DNA of 64,000 nt from Candidatus Aminicenantes bacterium (GTDB lineage Bacteria > Acidobacteriota > Aminicenantia > Aminicenantales > Saccharicenantaceae): NCBI GenBank assembly GCA_963807525.1, contig CAWECI010000008.1:33011-97010 (forward strand), in the 5' to 3' direction. Numbering within the stretch: position 1 is the first letter of the stretch; the number at the start of each line of letters is the position of its first letter. The notes beneath the pieces were generated by a model. That model ran no database searches. It had not been told where the DNA came from and saw only the letters and a program-made list of their open reading frames with translations. This document shows positions 3,305-22,745 of this stretch, piece after piece. The translations under genes were made by a program, and so were the position numbers.

Positions 3305-4048
3305 TCAGCGCTGCTTGAGCGTCTCGAGGATGGCCGCTGCGACGGGCCCGTAGCCGCTCTTCAGGCGGTGTCCTCCGGGCAGCTGGAGGCAATGGACCCG
3401 ATGGGGGTCGAGCTTAGTGCAGATCTGGTCGTCGTCCCCTTCGCCATAGGCGCAGAGGATCTTGATGCCGGCCGGGATCTTCTCGATCTCCGGGATGGTG
3501 GGCAGGGTGTTCTTCCGCGGGCCGGCGCCTACCCAGTCGAGGACGTGGAACTCGAATTCCGCCGATGAGGAGGGCCCCAGGAGGGCGATCAGGACCACCT
3601 GGGCCTGGAGGTCCTCCGGCAGACGGGTCATCATGAACGGCAGGGTGTCCGCGCCGAGGGAATAGCCGATCAGGACCACCCGGGTCTTGCGCCAGGCCGC
3701 GAGATAATGGCGCAGGATCCGAGTCAGGTCCAGACCCGTTTCATCCGGCGTCTTGGGCTTCCAGAAATACTTGAGGGCGTTGAGGCCGATCACGGCGACG
3801 CCGCTGTTCGACAGGTCTTGGGACAGGCCTCGGTCCGGCAGGGCCCATCCGCCATCGCCGGTGACCAGGACTGCCAGGACGTCGGTGGTGCCGAAGGCGG
3901 CCGGGACCTCGACGAGGGGCAGGTCTCTCACGGCCGGGAGTCCGGCCTGATCCGTGGCCGGAGGCGTCCCGGCGCCGGGACCGGCGGCCGCGCCCAGGGC
4001 GGTCAGAATAAAAAGAACGATGACGACAGACAAACGGCGGGCGCTCAT
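3305..4048 (-). CDS. AcvB/VirJ-family alpha/beta hydrolase (putative aminoacyl-phosphatidylglycerol hydrolase), secreted
   Basis: Signal peptide MSARRLSVVIVLFILTALGAAA. TGDGGW and GYSLGAD motifs as in VirJ/AcvB. The ATG at 4048 overlaps the upstream stop (ATGA). The ORF-track start 4135 lies inside the upstream gene. Confidence 0.8.
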   Translation of the reverse strand: MSARRLSVVIVLFILTALGAAAGPGAGTPPATDQAGLPAVRDLPLVEVPAAFGTTDVLAVLVTGDGGWALPDRGLSQDLSNSGVAVIGLNALKYFWKPKTPDETGLDLTRILRHYLAAWRKTRVVLIGYSLGADTLPFMMTRLPEDLQAQVVLIALLGPSSSAEFEFHVLDWVGAGPRKNTLPTIPEIEKIPAGIKILCAYGEGDDDQICTKLDPHRVHCLQLPGGHRLKSGYGPVAAAILETLKQR

Positions 4049-5052
4049 GATCCGGCGCTCCCTTGCGTGATCTTGGCCTTCGTCGAGGCCAGCGACAGTC
4101 CGGTCCGGCCCAGGGCCAGGAGTCCCAGGCCCCAAAGCGGCGCCGACAGAAGCACAAAAACGACGACGGAGAAGCCGGCCGCGACCGTCTTATCCACGCC
4201 AAAGAGGGCCAGGCCCAGGACGCAGAACACTTGGTACAGGCCGAGGTTGCCCGGCGCCCCCGGGATGACCGTGCCGAAACGGACGATCAGGAAGACCGCC
4301 CCGGCGATCCAGAACGAGAGGCGCAGTCCATAAGCGATCATGATGAACCAGAACGAGAAGGCCTGGAAAGCGACGACCGGCAACGAGAGCAGGAAGGCGG
4401 CGGCCGAGACGCGGGTCAGGCCGATCAGGCGAAGCCCGTCCTGGAGTTGCCGCACATTCGAGGCGATCCAGCGGGACGCGGCCGAGCGGGGCCTGTCGGG
4501 GCGGTCGGGACGCGGCTCGCGGGCCCTGCGGACCACAAGAAAGAAGGTCAGGGCCGTCAACCCGATGATGGCCAGGCCGAAAATATTGCCGGCCGCGATC
4601 AGCCTGCGCGGCAGAGGCACTCGGATGGCCGTCAGGCCCAGGCCGGCCGCGAGCCAGATGCCATCGAAGAGACGTTCCAGGGCCATCGACGGCACGACGG
4701 AGACCAAGGGGGCGGCCAGCCAGCGGGCGACGGGATAGGCCCGGACGACTTCGCCGATATGAAAGGGCGCGACCTCGTTGAGGAAGAGGCCGGCGTAGAC
4801 GGCCTGGGTCGCCCGCATCACGGACAGGTCGCCGACCGGTTTGAGGAGCAGGCGCCAGCGGACCGCCTGGAGGACATAAGCGATGACGTCGGCCAGGATG
4901 CCGATGACGACCCAACGCCAGTCGAGCCCGGCCACGTGCTTCAGGAGCTTGGCCCAGGCGACGTCGTGGAAGACCCAGGCCAGCCCGGCGACAGCCGCGA
5001 GGTAGGCGGCCGTGCGGCCGAGCGTCCGGCCGAGCCCAGGCTTCTTGGTCAT
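4045..5052 (-). CDS. polytopic membrane protein of the lysylphosphatidylglycerol-synthase TM-region (UPF0104, MprF flippase-like) family
   Basis: Only the last 335 codons of the 587-aa track ORF look real (MTKKPGLGRTLG.. with 8 or so hydrophobic helices, RWRLLL motif). ATG 5052 overlaps the stop of the upstream gene (ATGA). The upstream part of the ORF is an Arg/Pro-rich out-of-frame read of the MprF gene. Confidence 0.75.
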   Translation of the reverse strand: MTKKPGLGRTLGRTAAYLAAVAGLAWVFHDVAWAKLLKHVAGLDWRWVVIGILADVIAYVLQAVRWRLLLKPVGDLSVMRATQAVYAGLFLNEVAPFHIGEVVRAYPVARWLAAPLVSVVPSMALERLFDGIWLAAGLGLTAIRVPLPRRLIAAGNIFGLAIIGLTALTFFLVVRRAREPRPDRPDRPRSAASRWIASNVRQLQDGLRLIGLTRVSAAAFLLSLPVVAFQAFSFWFIMIAYGLRLSFWIAGAVFLIVRFGTVIPGAPGNLGLYQVFCVLGLALFGVDKTVAAGFSVVVFVLLSAPLWGLGLLALGRTGLSLASTKAKITQGSAGS

Positions 5053-6803
5053 TTGGCCACGACCCCCGAGCTCAGGCCCGAGATCCGGAGAAGGGCGATG
5101 GCCATCCGCGGCAGCTCGAAGACGTTCCGGTACATCGTGTAGCGGGGCTCCCAGTGCGTCGCGAACTTGGCCTTGTAGTCCGACAGGCCCTCGTAGCTGA
5201 AAATGAAGTTCAGGCGCTGCAGGAAGTACTGGACGGCCCTCTCCTCGGCCCCCGACTCCTCCCCGGTCAGGAAGCCGGACAGAGGCGCCAGCCCGAGGCT
5301 GAACCGGCGGAACCCGTTCTCCTTTTGCTTCTCGAAGAGCTTGATGAAAAGGCTGTCCATGATGCCCGGCGGCGCGTCCCGGCAATGGCGCATCAGGTCG
5401 ATGGTCGTCTCGCCCGGGGCGTAGGACCGGACGATGTTGACGAACGCGAGGACTTGACCGTCCGGCCCCAGGGCGGCGAAAACCGGGGTCGGCCGGACCT
5501 CGGCCTCGGAAAAGACCCCGACCGTGAAGCCTCTTTCCCGGCGGCCCGGGATGCGCAGCCAATCGTCCGAGACCTCGCGCAGGCGGGCCAAAACCTCGTC
5601 CGGGATGGGCGGCTCGTAAAAGACCGCCCGCAGACCGGTCTTGTCGAACTGGTTGAGGGCGTGGCGGATGTGTTTCATCGACCTGCCGCCCAGGTCGAAG
5701 GCGTCGAAGTCGACGATGGCGTCCTCGCCGATCTTCATCTTCTTGAAGCCGGCCTGGCGGTACAACGGCAGGAAATCGGGCAGGACCTGGTAGAAGGCCA
5801 GCCGCCAATCGTTGTCTTCGCAGAACGCCGCGAACGAGCGGATGAGCCCCGGCAATTCCTCCTCCGGGCCGACGGGGTCGGCCAGGGTCACCGCGAAGGC
5901 GCGCGACACTCGATAAGCGATGAAGGAGGCGCCGGATTCGGAGAAGAAGAAGGCCTTGTCATGCGCCAGCTTGAACGGGTCGAGCGCGGACCGGCCGTGC
6001 GACTCCAGGATCCGGGCGGCCTCGGCCCGCTCTTCGGGCAGGGTCCGGAGCCTGTAGAAGACCGGCCGGAAGAGCGAGTAGAGCACAAAGAGCAGGGCCG
6101 TGACGGAGACGAGGTCGAGCGAATCCAGGAACCAGACCGCGAAACGCGTCTGCGGGACGAGGAAGGGATCCTGGACAAAGACCAGGGCGGAGAGCGTCCG
6201 GCGGACGCCGTCCGCGAAGCTGAAGGTGATGCCGAAGTCCCGCTTTTCCAGGAGCCAGAAGCCTACGGCGCCGTAGAGGAGCGTGACGGCGAGGGCGATC
6301 CCGAGCGGGATCAGCGTGGTCCGAAGGTCCGGCAGGCTGCTCTTGACCCGGAAGTTCTTCCGGGCCAGGAACAGGACGATCATCAGGACGAGCGAGAGCG
6401 TGGCCTCCTCGTAATCCAGACCCTTGGTCAGGTGGAAGACGACCGAGAGCCCGGCCAGGATCATCACCAGGACGAAGGCCCGCTTCTTGCGCTTGAGGAT
6501 GTTCAGCGAGGACACGGCCAGGGCGAAGCCGATGAGGAGGGACAGGAAGCGGGACAGGTGCACGAACGAGAGGGGGAAGATCCCCCCCAGAACGGTCATG
6601 CGCGTGGGCAGGGATCGGCTCGCCGCGGAGATGATGTTGACGATGCCGCTGCCGAGGGTGATAAGCCCCACGGCCCGCACGACGATCCGATGCGACAGCC
6701 GCCGGCGAGCCCCTCGAGGAGCGGGCCGGTCCCCCTCCCCGGCTTCGGTCCTCGGGAATTCGCTCGTGCGCGCGCTCGTCATGGCGTCGGGCGGCGGCAG
6801 CAA
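5049..6803 (-). CDS. mprF: aminoacyl-phosphatidylglycerol synthase (MprF synthase half: about 6 TM helices plus cytosolic tRNA-dependent transferase domain)
   Basis: N-terminal hydrophobic helices, then a C-terminal domain resembling the MprF/LysX transferase domain (FIAYRVSRAFAVTLADPVGP.., YKAKFATHWEPRY). Start uncertain: TTG 6803 or ATG 6782. Confidence 0.8.
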   Translation of the reverse strand: MLPPPDAMTSARTSEFPRTEAGEGDRPAPRGARRRLSHRIVVRAVGLITLGSGIVNIISAASRSLPTRMTVLGGIFPLSFVHLSRFLSLLIGFALAVSSLNILKRKKRAFVLVMILAGLSVVFHLTKGLDYEEATLSLVLMIVLFLARKNFRVKSSLPDLRTTLIPLGIALAVTLLYGAVGFWLLEKRDFGITFSFADGVRRTLSALVFVQDPFLVPQTRFAVWFLDSLDLVSVTALLFVLYSLFRPVFYRLRTLPEERAEAARILESHGRSALDPFKLAHDKAFFFSESGASFIAYRVSRAFAVTLADPVGPEEELPGLIRSFAAFCEDNDWRLAFYQVLPDFLPLYRQAGFKKMKIGEDAIVDFDAFDLGGRSMKHIRHALNQFDKTGLRAVFYEPPIPDEVLARLREVSDDWLRIPGRRERGFTVGVFSEAEVRPTPVFAALGPDGQVLAFVNIVRSYAPGETTIDLMRHCRDAPPGIMDSLFIKLFEKQKENGFRRFSLGLAPLSGFLTGEESGAEERAVQYFLQRLNFIFSYEGLSDYKAKFATHWEPRYTMYRNVFELPRMAIALLRISGLSSGVVAK

Positions 6804-6813
6804 AGGCCGGAAG

Positions 6814-8601
6814 CTACAGCTTCTCCATGGCGCCGATCCCGACGTCGGCCGGGTCCACGTCCACGAAGACGACCCTGTTCCCGCCGGCCCTGTAGAGTAC
6901 GATCACATGCGTGGCCCCGCCCCCGGTCAAGGTCCCGGTCCAACGTCCGATATTCACGGTGTCGGCCGCAAAAGAGCCCGTCAGGCCGGCGTTGCCGTCG
7001 ATCACGCCGGAAGCGTTGACGTCCATCGTGCCGGTCAGCGCCCCGCCGGCCGCCAGGGTCCGCCCCAGCCAATCGTTCTCGCCAACGCTTGAGACGAACT
7101 CGAAGCTGACCGCGTAGTCGCCGGCCAGGTCTCCCGCCGACTGCGGCACGATCTGGCCCGTCGATACGGCCAGGGCGTCATAATCGAGGAACAGCGCGCC
7201 GCCGCCCCCGGCCGGATCGTTCGGGTCGGCGAGGTCGATGGCCGGGTCGACGAGGAAGACCCGCAGGGAGGCGAGGCTGGCCAGCTGGTCGACGGACGCG
7301 GGCAGATCGAGAGTCCCCACCCCGTTCCCGTTGATCGAATAGCGGGCCTGGCCGGCGATCGACGTCGACGTGATGAAGTTGGCGTTGTTGAGATCGGCAC
7401 GGCCGGTCGCGAAATTGCCCGCGCCGTCGGCCGCGAATTGGCCGGCATAGGCGAGAGATCCATAAGCCGTCCCCCCGGCTCCGGCCAGGGCGAAATTCCC
7501 CGTCAGGGACGCGTTCGAGAACGTCCCGCCCAGGCCGGCGTCGCCTTGCCCGAACAGGCTGCCGGCCGTCACGAACGACGGGGAATCCGCTTCGAGCAGC
7601 CGCAGGACCCGGCCTTGGACGGCGTAATAGACGTAGCTCACGCCGACGCTCAGATCGAGCGTGCCCCGGCCGAAGGCGTCCGGGGCCGTGACCGACCCGG
7701 TGACCGCAGAAGACGTTGTGATGCCGGCGTCGTTCTCGAAGTAGGTGCCGGCGGTCACGCTGCCGCTGGAAGCGGTCATCGAGAGAACGCCGCCGCGGGC
7801 GATCGGCAGCTGGATGGAGAGGTCCTCGCCCTGGGACGTGAAGGCGAACGGCCCGCTGATGGCCGCGGGGTCGAGGGCGCTCGCGGACTGGAGGTCCAGG
7901 CTGCCGCTCGAGGTGGCCGCGCCATCGAACTGCATGATGAGCGCGTGTCCGGCCGAGACCACGGTGATGCTGAACGTCTCGACCCCCTTCTGGGGCAGGT
8001 CCGAGTTGCTCACGCTGAGGTTGATGCTGCCCCGGCCGTCCGGCCCGACCGCATAGGTGCCGGCGAGGCTGTCGGGGCCGGCTTGGCGGGAGGGATCGGC
8101 ATAGTCCTGCTCGCCCCCGGTGATCAGGCCGGCGCCGTCGGCGACGAGGGTGCCGGCGGCAGCGTAGCCGCCGGTCTCGTTCTGTCCCTGGACCGCAAAG
8201 ACATAGGTCCCGCTGAGCAGGCCGTTCGAGCCGACCGGGACGACGGAGACGACGAGGCTGTCCTGGGCCGTGGCGTCCGCGGCCGCCGTGGCGACAACGG
8301 TCACCGTGCCGGCCGTCGCCGGGGCGGTGTAGACCGTCGAAGCCCCGCTCGCGGTGTGGGCGGGCGTGAACGTGCCGCACGACCCGCCGGAGCAGGACCA
8401 ATCGACGCCGGCGTCCGAGGAATCATTGCTGACCGCCGCCGTCAGGCTCACCGATTGGCCGCCGGTGACGACGCTCGGCACGGTGATCAGGGAAACGATG
8501 ACCTGTTCATGGTTCCGGGAGCAGCCGGAAGCAAGGACCAGGACGAGCGCCAGAGCGGCGAACCCCGAAAGAACGGCTATGGTCCGGCCACGGACTTTCA
8601 T
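6814..8601 (-). CDS. lipoprotein, N-terminal Ig-like domain plus Gly/Ala/Ser/Thr-rich beta-rich body; function unknown
   Basis: Signal peptide with lipobox LASGC. Long uninterrupted ORF with high third-position GC. The antisense and out-of-frame ORFs here are Arg/Pro junk. Confidence 0.7.
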   Translation of the reverse strand: MKVRGRTIAVLSGFAALALVLVLASGCSRNHEQVIVSLITVPSVVTGGQSVSLTAAVSNDSSDAGVDWSCSGGSCGTFTPAHTASGASTVYTAPATAGTVTVVATAAADATAQDSLVVSVVPVGSNGLLSGTYVFAVQGQNETGGYAAAGTLVADGAGLITGGEQDYADPSRQAGPDSLAGTYAVGPDGRGSINLSVSNSDLPQKGVETFSITVVSAGHALIMQFDGAATSSGSLDLQSASALDPAAISGPFAFTSQGEDLSIQLPIARGGVLSMTASSGSVTAGTYFENDAGITTSSAVTGSVTAPDAFGRGTLDLSVGVSYVYYAVQGRVLRLLEADSPSFVTAGSLFGQGDAGLGGTFSNASLTGNFALAGAGGTAYGSLAYAGQFAADGAGNFATGRADLNNANFITSTSIAGQARYSINGNGVGTLDLPASVDQLASLASLRVFLVDPAIDLADPNDPAGGGGALFLDYDALAVSTGQIVPQSAGDLAGDYAVSFEFVSSVGENDWLGRTLAAGGALTGTMDVNASGVIDGNAGLTGSFAADTVNIGRWTGTLTGGGATHVIVLYRAGGNRVVFVDVDPADVGIGAMEKL

Positions 8602-8630
8602 GGGAGCCTCCTTTTGTCTTCTATTCTACT

Positions 8631-9818
8631 CTATTTCCGGCGCGGATTCCCCTGCGGTTTGGACGGAGCGGACCGCTTGACCTGCTCCGCTTCGCGCTGG
8701 TGCCGCTGAGCCATCTGCTGGCGTTCGGCCTGGTGCTGCTTTTGCTGCTCGGCCGCCTGGGCCCGGTGCTGCTGGTCGATCCGGGCCTGCTCTGCCTGGC
8801 TCTGGATGTTGCGTTTTTCCTGCGCCTGGCGGCGGGCCAGGTCCTGCTGCTCCTGGGCCTGGCTGCGCTGGAGCAAAGTCTGTTCTTGGGCCTGCCTCTT
8901 TCGAATGGCAGACTCGGGGGATGCGGCCCGGGCCCCCTGAGGAGGCTCATAGATCCGAGCCGTCCCCATCTGTTGACGGGCTTCCTCGGGGGTCAGCGCC
9001 TGCCTCGGCCGGGCCTGGCGATCCTCCCGGAACGCGGGCCTATAGAACATGGCCTGGTTGCCGGAAATGCGCGGGCCGCCGGGACGGTCGGCATTGGCAA
9101 GCGTATAGCGGGTGACCTGGCGCCCGGTGAAGCGCTGGATGGAATTCACGTCGATCCCTTCATTGATCATCCGGCCGCCCCGGAATTCGTAGCGGTTCTG
9201 GAACCGGGTCCGGTTGGCGACCGTCGCGTTGCGCTCATAGGGAAGGCAGTAGCGCCGGAGGTTGCGGTCCAGGAAGTGGGGCCCGTTGACGAACACCCAG
9301 AAATTCAGCGGCAGCCCCAGGGCATAGGCGTCGAAGTCAATGCCCATCCCGAAGGCGATCCCGGGCGGGATCGGCGCCCAGCCGCAGTAAAGGTCCGAGG
9401 ACCGCCAGAAGACCCAGGCCGGGCCCCACTCCGTGCCGGGCGCCCAGAACCAGCCGCAGCCGTCGTCCCAGCCCCAGCGGCCATAATGAAAGGGCATCCA
9501 GCCCCAGTCATAGTCGGAGTCCCAGCACCAGCCGTAGTCGGACCAGATCCAATGCCCGTCCGCGTACGGTCTCCAGCCATAGCCCATATGCCTTGGGCAC
9601 CAGACATAGCCGTAACGGTCCAGGGTGATCCATGAGCCATAGGGGGCCAGGTAATCATAGCAATAGCCGATATCGAGCCCTGCGCCAAAGCCCTGCGGCG
9701 CACCCGGGATCGGGCCACCCGGCCCGGCTTGCGGATAGCTCGCCGCGATGCAGAACGACGATAAGGCCGCCAGCGCGGCCATAAAGACCAGGCTCGAGAC
9801 GAGGCGAACGGATTTCAT
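8631..9818 (-). CDS. secreted Trp/Tyr/Gly-rich protein (resembles WXXGXW-repeat / DUF6600-type proteins) with Gln/Arg/Glu-rich C-terminal tail
   Basis: ATG 9818 is preceded by AGGAGG. Signal peptide MKSVRLVSSLVFMAALAALS. The track start 9851 is a TTG lying inside the sigma54 -12 box. Confidence 0.75.
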   Translation of the reverse strand: MKSVRLVSSLVFMAALAALSSFCIAASYPQAGPGGPIPGAPQGFGAGLDIGYCYDYLAPYGSWITLDRYGYVWCPRHMGYGWRPYADGHWIWSDYGWCWDSDYDWGWMPFHYGRWGWDDGCGWFWAPGTEWGPAWVFWRSSDLYCGWAPIPPGIAFGMGIDFDAYALGLPLNFWVFVNGPHFLDRNLRRYCLPYERNATVANRTRFQNRYEFRGGRMINEGIDVNSIQRFTGRQVTRYTLANADRPGGPRISGNQAMFYRPAFREDRQARPRQALTPEEARQQMGTARIYEPPQGARAASPESAIRKRQAQEQTLLQRSQAQEQQDLARRQAQEKRNIQSQAEQARIDQQHRAQAAEQQKQHQAERQQMAQRHQREAEQVKRSAPSKPQGNPRRK

Positions 9819-9846
9819 GGTCGACCTCCTTCGTGTCCAAAAAAGA

Positions 9847-9862
9847 TGCAAACTCTATGCCA
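9847..9862 (-). promoter_or_regulatory. sigma54 (RpoN) -24/-12 promoter for the 9818..3305 minus-strand gene string
   Basis: The minus strand reads TGGCAT-AGAGT-TTGCA (GG and GC separated by 10 nt). The predicted TSS is about 18 nt upstream of ATG 9818, leaving just the AGGAGG SD in the leader. Confidence 0.7.
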
Positions 9863-9921
9863 TCTGGGAGGACCCAGTTAGACCCGAAGGCGGGTGCCGA
9901 TCGGCCCGGCGCTTCCTGTCC

Positions 9922-9938
9922 GGCAGGATAATCCCGCC
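9922..9938. promoter_or_regulatory. 17-bp imperfect palindrome, candidate shared activator (bEBP) or IHF-type site
   Basis: GGCAGGAT-A-ATCCCGCC pairs 7 of 8 positions. It is centred at about 9930, roughly equidistant (about 95 bp) from both predicted sigma54 start sites. Confidence 0.3.
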
Positions 9939-9999
9939 TTGAAATGGGCCATTCCGGACTGAGGGCGAGACCCGACAGGGGAGGTCCATCGGACGCCCT

Positions 10000-10015
10000 T
10001 GGCATGGAGATTGCA
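10000..10015 (+). promoter_or_regulatory. sigma54 (RpoN) -24/-12 promoter for the 10045 and 10660 genes
   Basis: TGGCAT-GGAGA-TTGCA with canonical GG-N10-GC spacing. The predicted TSS is about 20 nt before ATG 10045, and the GAGGGAGG SD lies in between. Confidence 0.7.
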
Positions 10016-10044
10016 TAATCTTATATGAACGAGGGAGGTGCATT

Positions 10045-10626
10045 ATGAAGATCTTCAAATCGGTCTTTCTGGCTCTTCTTCTGTGCGCGGCCGTCGCCTT
10101 TCCCCAGACCAAAGACCTGGGCATGGGGGCGTTTGAGAACGAGCACGGACCCATCCTGCTGGCCGTCGATGCCGCCCTGGTCGACTTCCAGCTCAGCAGC
10201 CCGTACGTCATGTTCGTCATGTACATGGCCTCCAATGACCACAACAAGGACATCGTCGTCAGCCGGAACACGATCGTCATGGTCTACAACGGGCAGGAGT
10301 ACAAGCTGCCGACCGTCAAGGAGCTCCGCGACAATTACAAGGGCGAGATCCATGACCTCGATTTCTATCGCCATCTCGGCAAGGAAGGCATCATCGCCAC
10401 CTGGGCCCGCTTCTACAATTTTCCCGACGGAGGGGATTTCTTCCCGCCTCTAACGATGCGCAGCCAGGTGGCCAGGGACGAAGGGTCCATGTACAGCTTC
10501 ACCGGCTTCCGGACCAAGCTGTATTTCAAGAACCCGGGCTTCAAGAAGGGAGACAAGGTGACCTTCAAGGTCTGGGACAAGAATGATCCCAAGATCAGCA
10601 ATACGATCGACGCCGTCCTCGACTAG
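10045..10626 (+). CDS. secreted hypothetical protein
   Basis: Strong SD, signal peptide MKIFKSVFLALLLCAAVAFPQ, good coding periodicity. No family recognised. Confidence 0.7.
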   Translation: MKIFKSVFLALLLCAAVAFPQTKDLGMGAFENEHGPILLAVDAALVDFQLSSPYVMFVMYMASNDHNKDIVVSRNTIVMVYNGQEYKLPTVKELRDNYKGEIHDLDFYRHLGKEGIIATWARFYNFPDGGDFFPPLTMRSQVARDEGSMYSFTGFRTKLYFKNPGFKKGDKVTFKVWDKNDPKISNTIDAVLD

Positions 10627-10659
10627 AGGCGGGATTCGATCAATCAAAAGGAGGTTTTC

Positions 10660-11040
10660 ATGAGATCCAAGATGATGGCGGCTGCGGGTGTTTTCATCAT
10701 CGCGCTCGCGGTGACCTCGGCCCTCGCTCAAGGCCCCTCGCTCCGGGCCACGATCGACTTCCAGTTCACCGTCGGCACCAAGATGTTCCCGGCGGGGACG
10801 TATACGTTCATCAAGGAAGACCCCGCCGATGTGTTCCGGGTGACCGGCGATAAGCACGAAGCCGTCGCTCCGGTCTTGACCCGGGTCGCGAGCATGATGC
10901 CGACCCTGGATGCGGTGGTGTTCGACGTCGTCGGTGACAAGTACGTCCTCGCGGAGATCTGGATCCCCGGCGATGACGGCTACGTGGTCGCCACGACCAA
11001 AGCCAAGCACACACACAAGATCGTAAAAGTCGGCATGTAA
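10660..11040 (+). CDS. secreted hypothetical protein (small beta-rich)
   Basis: AAGGAGG SD. Signal peptide ..IIALAVTSALAQG. Followed by a strong terminator hairpin. Confidence 0.7.
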   Translation: MRSKMMAAAGVFIIALAVTSALAQGPSLRATIDFQFTVGTKMFPAGTYTFIKEDPADVFRVTGDKHEAVAPVLTRVASMMPTLDAVVFDVVGDKYVLAEIWIPGDDGYVVATTKAKHTHKIVKVGM

Positions 11041-11053
11041 GTCCTGACCGCCA

Positions 11054-11081
11054 GGCCCGGGCGGCGCCGTCCGCCCGGGCC
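11054..11081 (+). terminator. GC-rich stem-loop, probable intrinsic terminator of the 10045-11040 unit
   Basis: GGCCCGGGCGG-CGCCGT-CCGCCCGGGCC is a perfect 11-bp stem with a 6-nt loop, 14 nt after the stop. The downstream tract is not U-rich. Confidence 0.5.
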
Positions 11082-11281
11082 ATTCCGATCCCCAAGGCCG
11101 GCGAACGGCAGGTTATTCCCCGAGGCCCCGATCGTAACGCCCGTAGAGCGGCCGGGATCGGGCTCTTTCCCACCTGTCCTTCCCGTCATCCCCATTTAAA
11201 TTCCTGGTCCGGGTGAAACATTCTGGCCGAACTTACGTCTAAATGTATGGAAACGAAAACAGGCTTTAGATGGAGGATATC

Positions 11282-11431
11282 ATGAAGATCAGAACGAAAC
11301 TGGCCATCCTGCTGGTCGCGGTCATACTCTCGCTCGCGGGCATCAATGCCATCGCCGGCGCCCTGTCGGTCGACAAGATCGCGGCGGCCGCGACCCCCTC
11401 GACGGAGGTCGGCGTCACCCTCGTCGGCTAA
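11282..11431 (+). CDS. 49-aa small hydrophobic / secreted peptide (not in the ORF track)
   Basis: GGAGGA lies 4 nt before the ATG. MKIRTKLAILLVAVILSLAGINAIAGALSVDKIAAAATPSTEVGVTLVG. It sits in an otherwise empty 460-nt gap with a lower-GC upstream region. Confidence 0.45.
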   Translation: MKIRTKLAILLVAVILSLAGINAIAGALSVDKIAAAATPSTEVGVTLVG

Positions 11432-11457
11432 GCCCGGCCCGCTTCCCGGGACCGGGT

Positions 11458-11486
11458 TTGACCGGGCTCATCCGCCCGGCTATCAT
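11458..11486 (+). promoter_or_regulatory. sigma70-type promoter for the DUF1801 gene
   Basis: TTGACC-17 nt-TATCAT, ending 18 nt before GTG 11504. Confidence 0.45.
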
Positions 11487-11503
11487 GGTCCCGGAAGGCG
11501 CCC

Positions 11504-11908
11504 GTGAGAAGCCGGAAGACCGCACCCCGAACGATCGACGACTACATCGCCGGGTTCCCCGGAGAGATCCAGGAACAGTTACAGTGCCTGCGCGCCGCGA
11601 TCAAGGCCGCGGCGCCGGCGGCCGAGGAACGCATCAGCTACCGGATGCCGGCGTTCTATCTCCGCGAGAACCTCGTCTATTTCGCGGCCTTCAAGGACCA
11701 CATCGGCTTCTTCCCGACGTCGAGCGGGGTGGCCGCCTTCGAGGCCGAGCTCGGCCCGTACAGGATCTCGAAGGGAACGATCCGGTTTCCCCTCGACCGG
11801 CCCCTGCCGCTGAAGCTCGTCGCCAAGATCGTCAAGTTCCGCGCCGCCGAGAACCTCGCCCGGACCGTCGGGAAGTCTGTTGATTCCCGCCTGGCGAAGC
11901 GCTCATGA
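11504..11908 (+). CDS. DUF1801 (YdhG-like) domain protein
   Basis: TIDDYIAGFP..ISYRMPAFYL..LVYFAAFKDHIGFFP..GKGTIRFPLD is the pattern typical of the YdhG/DUF1801 family. GTG start. Confidence 0.8.
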   Translation: MRSRKTAPRTIDDYIAGFPGEIQEQLQCLRAAIKAAAPAAEERISYRMPAFYLRENLVYFAAFKDHIGFFPTSSGVAAFEAELGPYRISKGTIRFPLDRPLPLKLVAKIVKFRAAENLARTVGKSVDSRLAKRS

Positions 11909-12066
11909 TCGGGCCGATCGGACGAGGCGTTCAGTTCTTCCTCGTCCGGCCATAGCGGACGCGCGGTACCAGAGGGGCTTGTTCCCCGGAGTCCTCCGTC
12001 TCGGCTGGCCCGAACTCCGCCATTCCTGTATAATCATCGTCGCTGAGGAAGGGGGCGGAGGCATCA

Positions 12067-22555: not shown

Positions 22556-22745
22556 GTTCCCCTCCCCTTTTCCGGACCTGAACGCGCAGGTCCTTTCGGG
22601 CCCTCTATTTTCATTATAGCAGGGGGTCCGTCTATCCTCCCCTGAAGGACGCCATCCTGCCCCTCGGGACAAGGCGGGCCGGAAGAGCTGCTGTCCTCTT
22701 CGCCCCTCCCTGAGCCGCCCCGAAGCGGCCCCTGGATCATCTGGC

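What the first reader, a model, noticed from the sequence alone, without database searches (positions are those of the whole stretch)
9847..10015. Two divergent sigma54 promoters 138 bp apart with a 17-bp palindrome exactly midway
The minus strand carries TGGCAT-AGAGT-TTGCA (9862..9847). The plus strand carries TGGCAT-GGAGA-TTGCA (10000..10015). Both fit the RpoN consensus TGGCAC-N5-TTGCW with correct GG-N10-GC spacing.

Each predicts a leader of about 18-20 nt that holds only a strong SD before the first ATG (9818 and 10045).

The near-palindrome GGCAGGAT-A-ATCCCGCC (9922-9938) is centred about 95 bp from both predicted start sites. That is the distance at which enhancer-binding proteins or IHF usually act. 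A perfect GCCGATCGGC palindrome (9896-9905) and two AGACCCGA(C)AGG direct copies (9880, 9968) also lie in this region.

The arrangement suggests one activator firing two envelope or secreted-protein units in opposite directions.
Basis: partly seen in the sequence, partly recalled or inferred. Interest (0 to 1): 0.6.

Follow-up and report, generated by a model that had tools for sequence, protein, structure and literature searches.

The report
Divergent sigma-54 promoters sharing one enhancer
Two back-to-back sigma-54 promoters in an uncultured Aminicenantes bacterium look real and conserved, with one conserved palindrome between them as the likely activator site; they drive cell-envelope genes, which is an ordinary kind of bacterial switch in a little-studied lineage.

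Summary

- **Genome-wide signal.** TGGCAY-N5-TTGCW occurs 31 times in this 3.86-Mb genome, against 0-4 for any other spacer length. 28 of the 31 sit just upstream of an SD plus ORF.
- **Machinery.** The genome has an intact rpoN and eight enhancer-binding proteins (bEBPs). None lies in the window.
- **Conservation.** Six same-genus genomes keep both boxes almost unchanged while the DNA around them is scrambled.
- **The palindrome.** The conserved element overlaps it: ATCCTGTC-N-GACAGGAT, at 9913-9929 in the window.
- **Spacing.** The conserved palindrome lies 78-82 bp from the plus-strand -24 box in all seven genomes. It lies 59-159 bp from the minus-strand box, so it is not a fixed midpoint.
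- **TGTCC core.** This core is the most enriched 5-mer upstream of the genome's sigma-54 promoters.
- **Genes driven.** The minus promoter heads DUF6600, a lipoprotein, split MprF and an AcvB/VirJ hydrolase. The plus promoter heads two secreted proteins of unknown function.

Verdict: two genuine divergent sigma-54 promoters with a probable enhancer. Sharing of that enhancer is plausible but unproven, and the activator is not identified. This is a new member of a known kind, of modest interest.

The parts
9847..9862 (-). Sigma-54 promoter, -24/-12 boxes TGGCATAGAGTTTGCA. Predicted start about 9836, leader about 18 nt.
   Evidence: Read. An exact 16-mer is kept in 6 of 7 same-genus genomes, with one change in the seventh. 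PWM score 20.7 bits.
10000..10015 (+). Sigma-54 promoter, -24/-12 boxes TGGCATGGAGATTGCA. Predicted start about 10026, leader about 19 nt.
   Evidence: Read. Kept as TGGCAY-N5-TTGCW in all 7 genomes. PWM score 28.1 bits. 24 of 30 loci of this gene family in relatives carry the consensus upstream.
9913..9929 (.). Conserved 17-bp palindrome TTCCTGTC-C-GGCAGGAT (genus consensus ATCCTGTC-N-GACAGGAT). Putative enhancer (UAS) for a bEBP.
   Evidence: Conserved in 7 of 7 genomes. Centre-to-plus -24 T distance is 79, 79, 81, 82, 78, 79 and 79 bp. Unique in the genome at 2 mismatches or fewer apart from one coding hit. Contains TGTCC, the top 5-mer upstream of this genome's sigma-54 promoters.
9931..9938 (.). 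Possibly a third half-site in this genome only.
   Evidence: Not conserved in relatives. The palindrome is no better than shuffles.
8631..9818 (-). First gene of the minus unit: secreted DUF6600 protein, 395 aa.
   Evidence: PF20245, E = 1.4e-32. 5 of 6 DUF6600 paralogues in the genome sit behind an exact sigma-54 consensus.
3305..8601 (-). Rest of the probable minus operon: 595-aa lipoprotein (6814-8601), MprF synthase half (5049-6803), LPG_synthase_TM (4045-5052) and VirJ/AcvB hydrolase (3305-4135).
   Evidence: Pfam hits. Gaps are 29 and 10 nt plus overlaps. Synteny in G005 and G002. In G001 the promoter directly precedes MprF.
10045..10626 (+). First gene of the plus unit: secreted 193-aa protein with no known family.
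   Evidence: No Pfam or NCBIfam hit. AF2 model at pLDDT 78.5 is a beta-sandwich with no PDB match at E < 1e-3.
10660..11040 (+). Second gene of the plus unit: secreted 126-aa protein of unknown family.
   Evidence: 33-nt gap with its own SD. Gene pair conserved in G005 and G002.
11054..11081 (+). GC-rich hairpin (GGCCCGGGCGG / CCGCCCGGGCC) after the 126-aa gene. Likely end of the plus unit.
   Evidence: Read. It has no T-run, so the terminator scan did not list it.

Best explanation
The 226-bp spacer between 9818 and 10045 holds two genuine, divergent RpoN (sigma-54) promoters.

**What each promoter does**
- E-sigma54 should bind each -24/-12 box as a closed complex and stay silent until an ATP-hydrolysing bEBP remodels it.
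- Each promoter gives a leader of about 18-19 nt that carries only an SD.
- The minus promoter drives an envelope operon: DUF6600 protein, lipoprotein, split MprF aminoacyl-phosphatidylglycerol synthase, and AcvB/VirJ-type hydrolase.
- The plus promoter drives two secreted proteins of unknown function.

**The enhancer**
- The activator most likely binds as a dimer (assembling into the active oligomer) to the conserved palindrome ATCCTGTC-N-GACAGGAT at 9913-9929.
- That site is about -105 from the plus start, roughly ten helical turns, and reaches the promoter by DNA looping.
- The same bound activator probably also serves the minus promoter from the other side. The distance there is about -85 in this genome and up to about -185 in relatives.
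- The activator is encoded elsewhere in the genome and is not identified.

**Shown versus inferred**
- Shown: the motifs, their genome-wide non-randomness, their conservation, the fixed spacing to the plus promoter, and the presence of rpoN and bEBPs.
- Inferred: actual transcription starts, that a bEBP binds the palindrome, and that it serves both promoters.
For: **Promoters**
- The boxes are at the stated coordinates.
- The consensus is 31-fold spacer-specific and 28 of 31 sites precede an SD plus ORF.
- PWM control: 36 real hits against 2 in reversed sequence at 20 bits or more.
- rpoN is intact, has the RpoN box, and sits in an rpoN-hpf-ptsN cluster. Eight bEBPs are present.
- There is no sigma-70-like promoter and no Rfam hit in the spacer.
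- Both boxes are invariant or nearly so in 7 same-genus genomes, while the DNA between the minus box and the palindrome is unalignable.

**Enhancer**
- The palindrome is conserved in 7 of 7 genomes at 78-82 bp from the plus -24 T.
- It is the only conserved element between the two promoters.
- TGTCC/GGACA is found at -114..-40 in 18 of 28 sigma-54 promoters. The comparison values are 15% of 685 control upstream regions and a mean of 3.2 for 5-mers of the same composition.
- Its half-sites TGTC/GACA are those of a characterised bEBP site, GlrR TGTCN10GACA (PMC3045617).

**Regulon logic**
- 5 of 6 DUF6600 paralogues and 2 of 2 paralogues of the 193-aa gene in this genome have the consensus.
- The link extends across the phylum for DUF6600, in 8-11 of 29 loci.
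- This fits the proposal that sigma-54 controls the bacterial exterior (PMC3162934).
Against: - There are no transcript data.
- No bEBP lies within the 64-kb window or within 6 kb of the locus in two relatives.
- The distance from palindrome to minus promoter varies from 59 to 159 bp with no helical phase. Sharing is therefore not backed by spacing.
- The palindrome occurs only once per genome, so no regulon supports it as a binding motif.
- Within this genome alone the palindrome has two mismatches and is not above shuffles.
- The minus box has A rather than the usual G after TGGCAT, and it scores lower.
- The PWM was built from this genome's own hits, so it is partly circular.
Confidence: 0.6

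Rival explanations
1. Both promoters are real, but the palindrome is the enhancer of the plus promoter only. The minus promoter is then activated independently: by a different bEBP at a poorly conserved site, by a site inside the neighbouring coding DNA, or by an activator acting from solution.
For: Spacing to the plus promoter is fixed at 78-82 bp, while spacing to the minus promoter ranges from 59 to 159 bp without phase. The first gene behind the minus promoter changes between species: DUF6600, lipoprotein or MprF. That suggests the two sides evolve separately.
Against: No other conserved block exists between the minus promoter and the palindrome. bEBPs are known to work at variable distances and in either orientation (established knowledge). 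The two promoters and the palindrome are inherited together in all 7 genomes.
Confidence: 0.25
2. The promoters are real, but the palindrome is the operator of an ordinary non-bEBP transcription factor or an architectural protein. That protein would modulate looping or block the activator, and would not be the enhancer itself.
For: There is a single copy per genome, as for a local repressor. No bEBP could be assigned. Phylogenetic profiles gave only weak leads.
Against: The position at about -105, strictly spaced from a sigma-54 promoter, is the classic UAS position. The TGTCC core recurs upstream of most other sigma-54 promoters of this genome. No regulator gene of any kind is adjacent.
Confidence: 0.1
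3. The -24/-12 matches are chance or non-functional look-alikes, and the genes are transcribed from unrecognised sigma-70-type promoters.
For: There is no experimental start site. Sigma-54 holoenzyme is known to bind many sites that are transcriptionally silent (established knowledge; compare PMC3844500, listed).
Against: Spacer-length specificity is 31 against 0-4. 28 of 31 sites are correctly placed before genes. Both 16-mers are near-perfectly conserved inside otherwise scrambled DNA. No sigma-70-like site was found.
Confidence: 0.04

Closest known systems
E. coli zraP <> zraSR intergenic region (ZraR/HydG)
   Same: Two divergent sigma-54 transcription units share one spacer that the activator binds at inverted repeats, and the output is a periplasmic envelope-stress protein. 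The spacer is listed as an RpoN target between divergent zraP and zraSR in PMC8743547. The details of ZraR binding are from my own knowledge.
   Different: In E. coli the activator and its kinase are encoded in one of the two units, so the system is autoregulated. Here no bEBP or kinase is in either unit or in the 64-kb window. The site sequence is unrelated, and there is a single 17-bp palindrome rather than several sites.
E. coli hyc / hyp divergent operons with FhlA upstream sites
   Same: One bEBP activates sigma-54 promoters that point in opposite directions from a common control region (my own knowledge, not tested here).
   Different: Those are formate-hydrogenlyase genes with different site sequences, IHF is involved, and FhlA is encoded at the end of hyp. 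None of this is seen here.
GlrR (QseF/YfhA) enhancer at glmY: TGTC-N10-GACA
   Same: The half-sites are the same, TGTC and GACA in inverted orientation, more than 100 bp upstream of a sigma-54 promoter (PMC3045617).
   Different: The arm spacing is 1 nt here against 10 nt. There is one copy instead of three. The phylum and the target are different. This is a resemblance of half-sites only.
Sigma-54 as 'central controller of the bacterial exterior' (Francke et al. 2011, PMC3162934)
   Same: The targets here are secreted proteins, a lipoprotein and membrane-lipid modification. Most of the genome's 31 consensus sites precede signal-peptide proteins.
   Different: That survey did not cover Aminicenantes. 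I found no paper on DUF6600 and no primary study linking RpoN to aminoacyl-phosphatidylglycerol synthesis; the one full-text hit was a general review that I did not open.
lpiA-acvB/atvA (MprF homologue plus lysyl-PG hydrolase) operons of Rhizobiales
   Same: The gene pairing is the same: an aminoacyl-PG synthase followed by a VirJ/AcvB hydrolase.
   Different: Those operons are described as acid-induced, and I know of no sigma-54 link for them (own knowledge). Here MprF is split into two genes and sits behind a sigma-54 promoter.

Membership tests
Sigma-54 (RpoN)-dependent promoter | GG-N10-GC core matching TGGCAC-N5-TTGCW | tested here: met
   Both sites match all 11 specified positions of TGGCAY-N5-TTGCW.
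Sigma-54 (RpoN)-dependent promoter | The motif is non-random in this genome and correctly placed before genes | tested here: met
   31 hits with a 5-nt spacer against 0-4 for other spacers. 28 of 31 lie upstream of an SD plus ORF. 36 real hits against 2 control hits at 20 bits or more.
Sigma-54 (RpoN)-dependent promoter | The organism encodes RpoN | tested here: met
   PF04552 hit of 203 bits. The ORF is 495 aa, has the ARRTVAKYR RpoN box and is followed by hpf and ptsN.
Sigma-54 (RpoN)-dependent promoter | The organism encodes AAA+ enhancer-binding activators with a GAFTGA loop | tested here: met
   Eight PF00158 proteins carry GAFTGA, GSFTGA or GAFTDA. One of them is frame-shifted.
Sigma-54 (RpoN)-dependent promoter | Transcription starts about 12 nt after the -12 C and depends on rpoN and a bEBP | not testable with these tools
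Divergent sigma-54 promoter pair with a shared enhancer (zraP-zraSR / hyc-hyp type) | Two sigma-54 promoters in opposite orientation in one spacer | tested here: met
   The boxes are at 9862..9847 and 10000..10015. The pair is conserved in 7 genomes.
Divergent sigma-54 promoter pair with a shared enhancer (zraP-zraSR / hyc-hyp type) | An activator-binding inverted repeat between the promoters that serves both | tested here: inconclusive
   One conserved palindrome lies between them. Its spacing is fixed only to the plus promoter. Binding and dual use were not tested.
Divergent sigma-54 promoter pair with a shared enhancer (zraP-zraSR / hyc-hyp type) | The cognate bEBP is encoded in or beside one of the two units | tested here: not met
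   There is no PF00158 hit on the window's stretch of contig C8. There is none within 6 kb in L033 or L034.
GlrR-type enhancer (TGTC-N10-GACA) | Inverted TGTC/GACA half-sites separated by 10 nt, in several copies | tested here: not met
   The half-sites are present, but the spacing is 1 nt and there is a single copy.

The most novel reading that the evidence does not exclude
The locus is a self-contained accessory 'envelope-charge' module. It comprises a split MprF, an AcvB hydrolase, DUF6600 and unknown secreted proteins, and only a subset of Aminicenantes species carries it. Both of its arms would be switched by one trans-encoded activator through a single 17-bp enhancer. Beyond this locus, TGTCC-core enhancers and DUF6600 genes would define a sigma-54 envelope regulon that runs across Acidobacteriota. 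That would be the first regulatory handle on DUF6600 and the first sigma-54 control of membrane-lipid aminoacylation.
Probability: 0.3. Interest if true: 0.5.

Novelty: new member of a known kind. Interest (0 to 1): 0.35.

Why it matters
Divergent sigma-54 promoters that share an enhancer are textbook architecture, so the structure itself is not new.

What is useful is the following:
- **A first regulatory map for an uncultured lineage.** In Aminicenantes there are about 30 clean sigma-54 promoters, nearly all before secreted or envelope proteins.
- **A handle on DUF6600.** This widespread family of unknown function emerges as a recurrent sigma-54 target, both in this genome (5 of 6 paralogues) and across Acidobacteriota.
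- **A possible new regulatory link.** An MprF/AcvB lipid-aminoacylation operon sits behind a sigma-54 promoter. I found no paper describing such control.
- **A testable prediction.** The precisely spaced palindrome gives a sharp, cheap reporter and EMSA experiment.

Tried and rejected
- **Rfam and sigma-70.** The Rfam scan of 8000-12000 gave nothing. The sigma-70 scan found no site in the spacer.
- **A regulon for the palindrome.** At 2 mismatches or fewer the only other hit in the genome is inside coding DNA. None of the 3-mismatch hits lies beside a convincing sigma-54 site.
  - TCCTGTCCNNCAGGA in 61 relatives is no commoner than its reversed control. Away from this locus it sits in unrelated, mostly coding contexts.
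- **Assigning the activator.** No bEBP is near the locus.
  - A chimeric query of the eight bEBP C-termini showed that six are universal in the genus. The C25-type and C9-type bEBPs correlate only loosely with presence of the locus, and the locus-bearing genomes are probably one clade.
  - A TTCCTGTC half-site beside the C25 bEBP looked promising but is absent from its orthologous spacers, so I rejected it.
- **Function of the 193-aa protein.** There is no Pfam or NCBIfam hit. The AF2 beta-sandwich has no PDB match at E < 1e-3.
- **IHF site.** I saw no WATCAR-N4-TTR between the palindrome and the plus promoter by eye. I did not test this further.
- **A strict sigma-54-to-MprF link.** In G008 and G033, MprF lies elsewhere without the consensus.

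Full report
**Observation**

The two boxes are exactly as described. The minus strand reads TGGCATAGAGTTTGCA at 9862..9847 and the plus strand reads TGGCATGGAGATTGCA at 10000..10015. The first ATGs are at 9818 and 10045, each behind a strong SD. Taking the C of the -12 GC as -12, the starts fall at about 9836 and 10026, which gives leaders of 18 and 19 nt.

The window is contig C8:33011-97010 of a 3.86-Mb, 65% G+C genome in 43 contigs, about 85% complete. Relatives carry the title Candidatus Aminicenantes.

**Is it more than chance?**

- TGGCAY-N5-TTGCW occurs 31 times on both strands of the genome. The same two half-motifs with spacers of 1-4 or 6-11 nt occur 0-4 times each.
- 28 of the 31 lie 16-166 nt upstream of an SD plus ORF, mostly signal-peptide proteins. 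Twelve of these lie 26-33 nt from the ATG, like the two sites here.
- A PWM built from these hits, and therefore partly circular, finds 36 sites at 20 bits or more against 2 in reversed sequence. The two sites score 28.1 and 20.7 bits.
- The genome has an intact 495-aa rpoN with the RpoN box, in an rpoN-hpf-ptsN cluster.
- It has eight bEBPs with GAFTGA-type loops: seven of the response-regulator type and one GAF-like. None is in the window.
- The spacer holds no sigma-70-like promoter and no Rfam match.

**Conservation**

Six other species of the same genus (G001, G002, G005, G008, G010, G025) have the orthologous 193-aa gene at 70-77% identity. I aligned their upstream regions and then located the motifs directly.

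- The minus-side 16-mer is identical in six of the seven genomes, with one change in G008.
- The plus-side box is TGGCAY-N5-TTGCW in all seven.
- The DNA between the minus box and the palindrome cannot be aligned and varies from 50 to 150 bp.
- The only other conserved element is a 17-bp palindrome, ATCCTGTC-N-GACAGGAT. In the window it is TTCCTGTCCGGCAGGAT at 9913-9929.
- Its centre lies 79, 79, 81, 82, 78, 79 and 79 bp from the T of the plus TGGCA.
- It lies 59, 159, 158, 139, 113, 88 and 94 bp from the minus one.

Its other arm (ATCCCGCC) is different in every relative, and 25% of shuffles of the spacer give one as good. GCCGATCGGC and the AGACCCGA repeats are likewise not conserved.

**Is the palindrome an enhancer?**

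- Its position, about -105 from the plus start and strictly kept, is the classic UAS position.
- Its core, TGTCC, is the most frequent of all 512 strand-collapsed 5-mers in the -114..-40 interval of the 28 non-redundant sigma-54 promoters, occurring in 18 of 28. Same-composition 5-mers average 3.2. A control interval gives 1 of 28. Of 685 upstream regions of other genes, 15% carry it.
- Three of the 18 come from an unrelated terminator-like hairpin repeat.
- TGTC/GACA are also the half-sites of the GlrR enhancer TGTCN10GACA (PMC3045617), but the arm spacing differs.
- The full palindrome is unique. Other near matches in this genome and in 60 relatives are in coding or unrelated DNA and are no commoner than a reversed control. 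The regulator therefore looks local, yet no regulator gene is adjacent.

**Genes served**

The minus side carries the following genes:
- a DUF6600 protein (8631-9818),
- a 595-aa lipoprotein,
- an MprF synthase half (PF09924),
- LPG_synthase_TM (PF03706),
- a VirJ/AcvB hydrolase (PF06057).

These genes are separated by 29 and 10 nt or overlap, and they converge on a DegP gene. This order holds in G005 and G002.

The first gene behind the promoter is not fixed. It is the lipoprotein in G025 and MprF itself in G001. In G008 it is DUF6600, with MprF 24 kb away.

MprF occurs in only 9 of 61 relatives, namely the seven locus-bearing genomes plus two others. The whole module is therefore accessory.

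The plus side carries a 193-aa and a 126-aa secreted protein with no family. The AF2 model of the first is a beta-sandwich with no PDB match. The unit ends at a GC-rich hairpin.

**Wider pattern**

- Five of six DUF6600 paralogues and both paralogues of the 193-aa gene in this genome sit behind the exact consensus.
- In 29 DUF6600 loci from other Acidobacteriota, 8 carry the exact consensus upstream on the gene's strand, and 3 more carry a relaxed one.
- 24 of 30 loci of the 193-aa family carry it.
- This fits the view of sigma-54 as controller of the cell exterior (PMC3162934).
- I found no paper on DUF6600, none on sigma-54 in Aminicenantes, and no primary study linking RpoN to aminoacyl-PG synthesis; the one full-text hit was a general review that I did not open.

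**Activator**

I queried 18 genomes with a chimera of the eight bEBP C-termini.
- Six bEBPs are universal in the genus.
- The C25-type is present at 77% identity or more in 5 of 6 locus-bearing genomes and in one genome without the locus. It appears at 61-68% identity in G008 and G006.
- The C9-type is in 5 of 6 locus-bearing genomes and in 3 of 11 without the locus.
- These are weak leads, because the locus-bearing genomes are probably one clade.
- A TTCCTGTC half-site beside the C25 bEBP is not conserved, so I dropped it.

**Verdict**

There are two real divergent sigma-54 promoters (about 0.9). The conserved palindrome at 9913-9929 is the probable enhancer of the plus promoter (about 0.6) and possibly of both (about 0.4). 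The architecture is known, from E. coli zraP-zraSR and hyc-hyp, but here the activator is not encoded at the locus. This is a new member of a known kind, and the interest is modest.

Noticed in passing
G000 genome, e.g. C9:220572-220600 and C8:154150-154176 (outside the window; none inside it): The palindromic core GGGACNGTCCC occurs 175 times, where I estimate about 15 by base composition. It is mostly in pairs 16-17 nt apart: AGAGGGACWGTCCCC-N4-GGGGACWGTCCC followed by T-runs. This looks like a genome-wide family of conserved-sequence terminator or REP-like hairpins.
   Followed up: partly
Genome-wide; window examples at 22742 (+) and 47470 (-): TGTCC/GGACA is the top 5-mer at -114..-40 from the -24 box, in 18 of 28 sigma-54 promoters against 15% of controls. 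It often occurs as two inverted copies 14-32 nt apart. This suggests one master activator or closely related ones.
   Followed up: partly
G000:C24:56288-56481 (outside the window): A second divergent pair of sigma-54-like boxes lies 163 bp apart, both with TTGCC at -12. It sits between a 146-aa gene on the plus strand and a membrane-anchored 206-aa gene on the minus strand; neither was scanned against Pfam. A CCCTGTCAGGG palindrome lies between the boxes.
   Followed up: no
L059, L060, L063, L067, L068, L073, L075, L083 (DUF6600 loci of other Acidobacteriota): DUF6600 genes across the phylum often have an exact sigma-54 consensus upstream on their own strand (8 of 29, plus 3 with a relaxed pattern). 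The family itself is in 70 of 81 sampled genomes.
   Followed up: partly
L085-L093 (G000:C25:64291-64400 and orthologues): A conserved TGGCAC-N5-TTGG box, with GG instead of GC at -12, lies between a response-regulator bEBP gene and the PAS hybrid kinase gene that follows it. It is kept in 7 genomes, with a variant in 2 more.
   Followed up: partly
window 3305-6803 and relatives: The split MprF plus AcvB/VirJ cluster is present in only 9 of 61 related genomes. Within the genus it co-occurs with the 193-aa gene orthologue, so the whole divergent module behaves as an accessory island.
   Followed up: partly
L032 and L036 (relatives): In some relatives the gene order is reversed (126-aa homologue first, then the 193-aa gene) and the sigma-54 box is absent directly upstream of the 193-aa gene. 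L035 shows a sigma-70-like TATAAT instead.
   Followed up: no
L041:8643-9200 and L042:8619-9176: A bEBP gene lies about 2.6 kb downstream of a distant homologue of the 193-aa gene (50% identity). A sigma-54 consensus follows that bEBP gene.
   Followed up: no
G000:C30:53732-55187: One of the eight bEBP genes is split by a frame shift inside the AAA+ domain. This is either an assembly error or a pseudogene. A sigma-54 box (C30:53605, minus) points away from it towards a 447-aa gene of unassigned function (not scanned).
   Followed up: no
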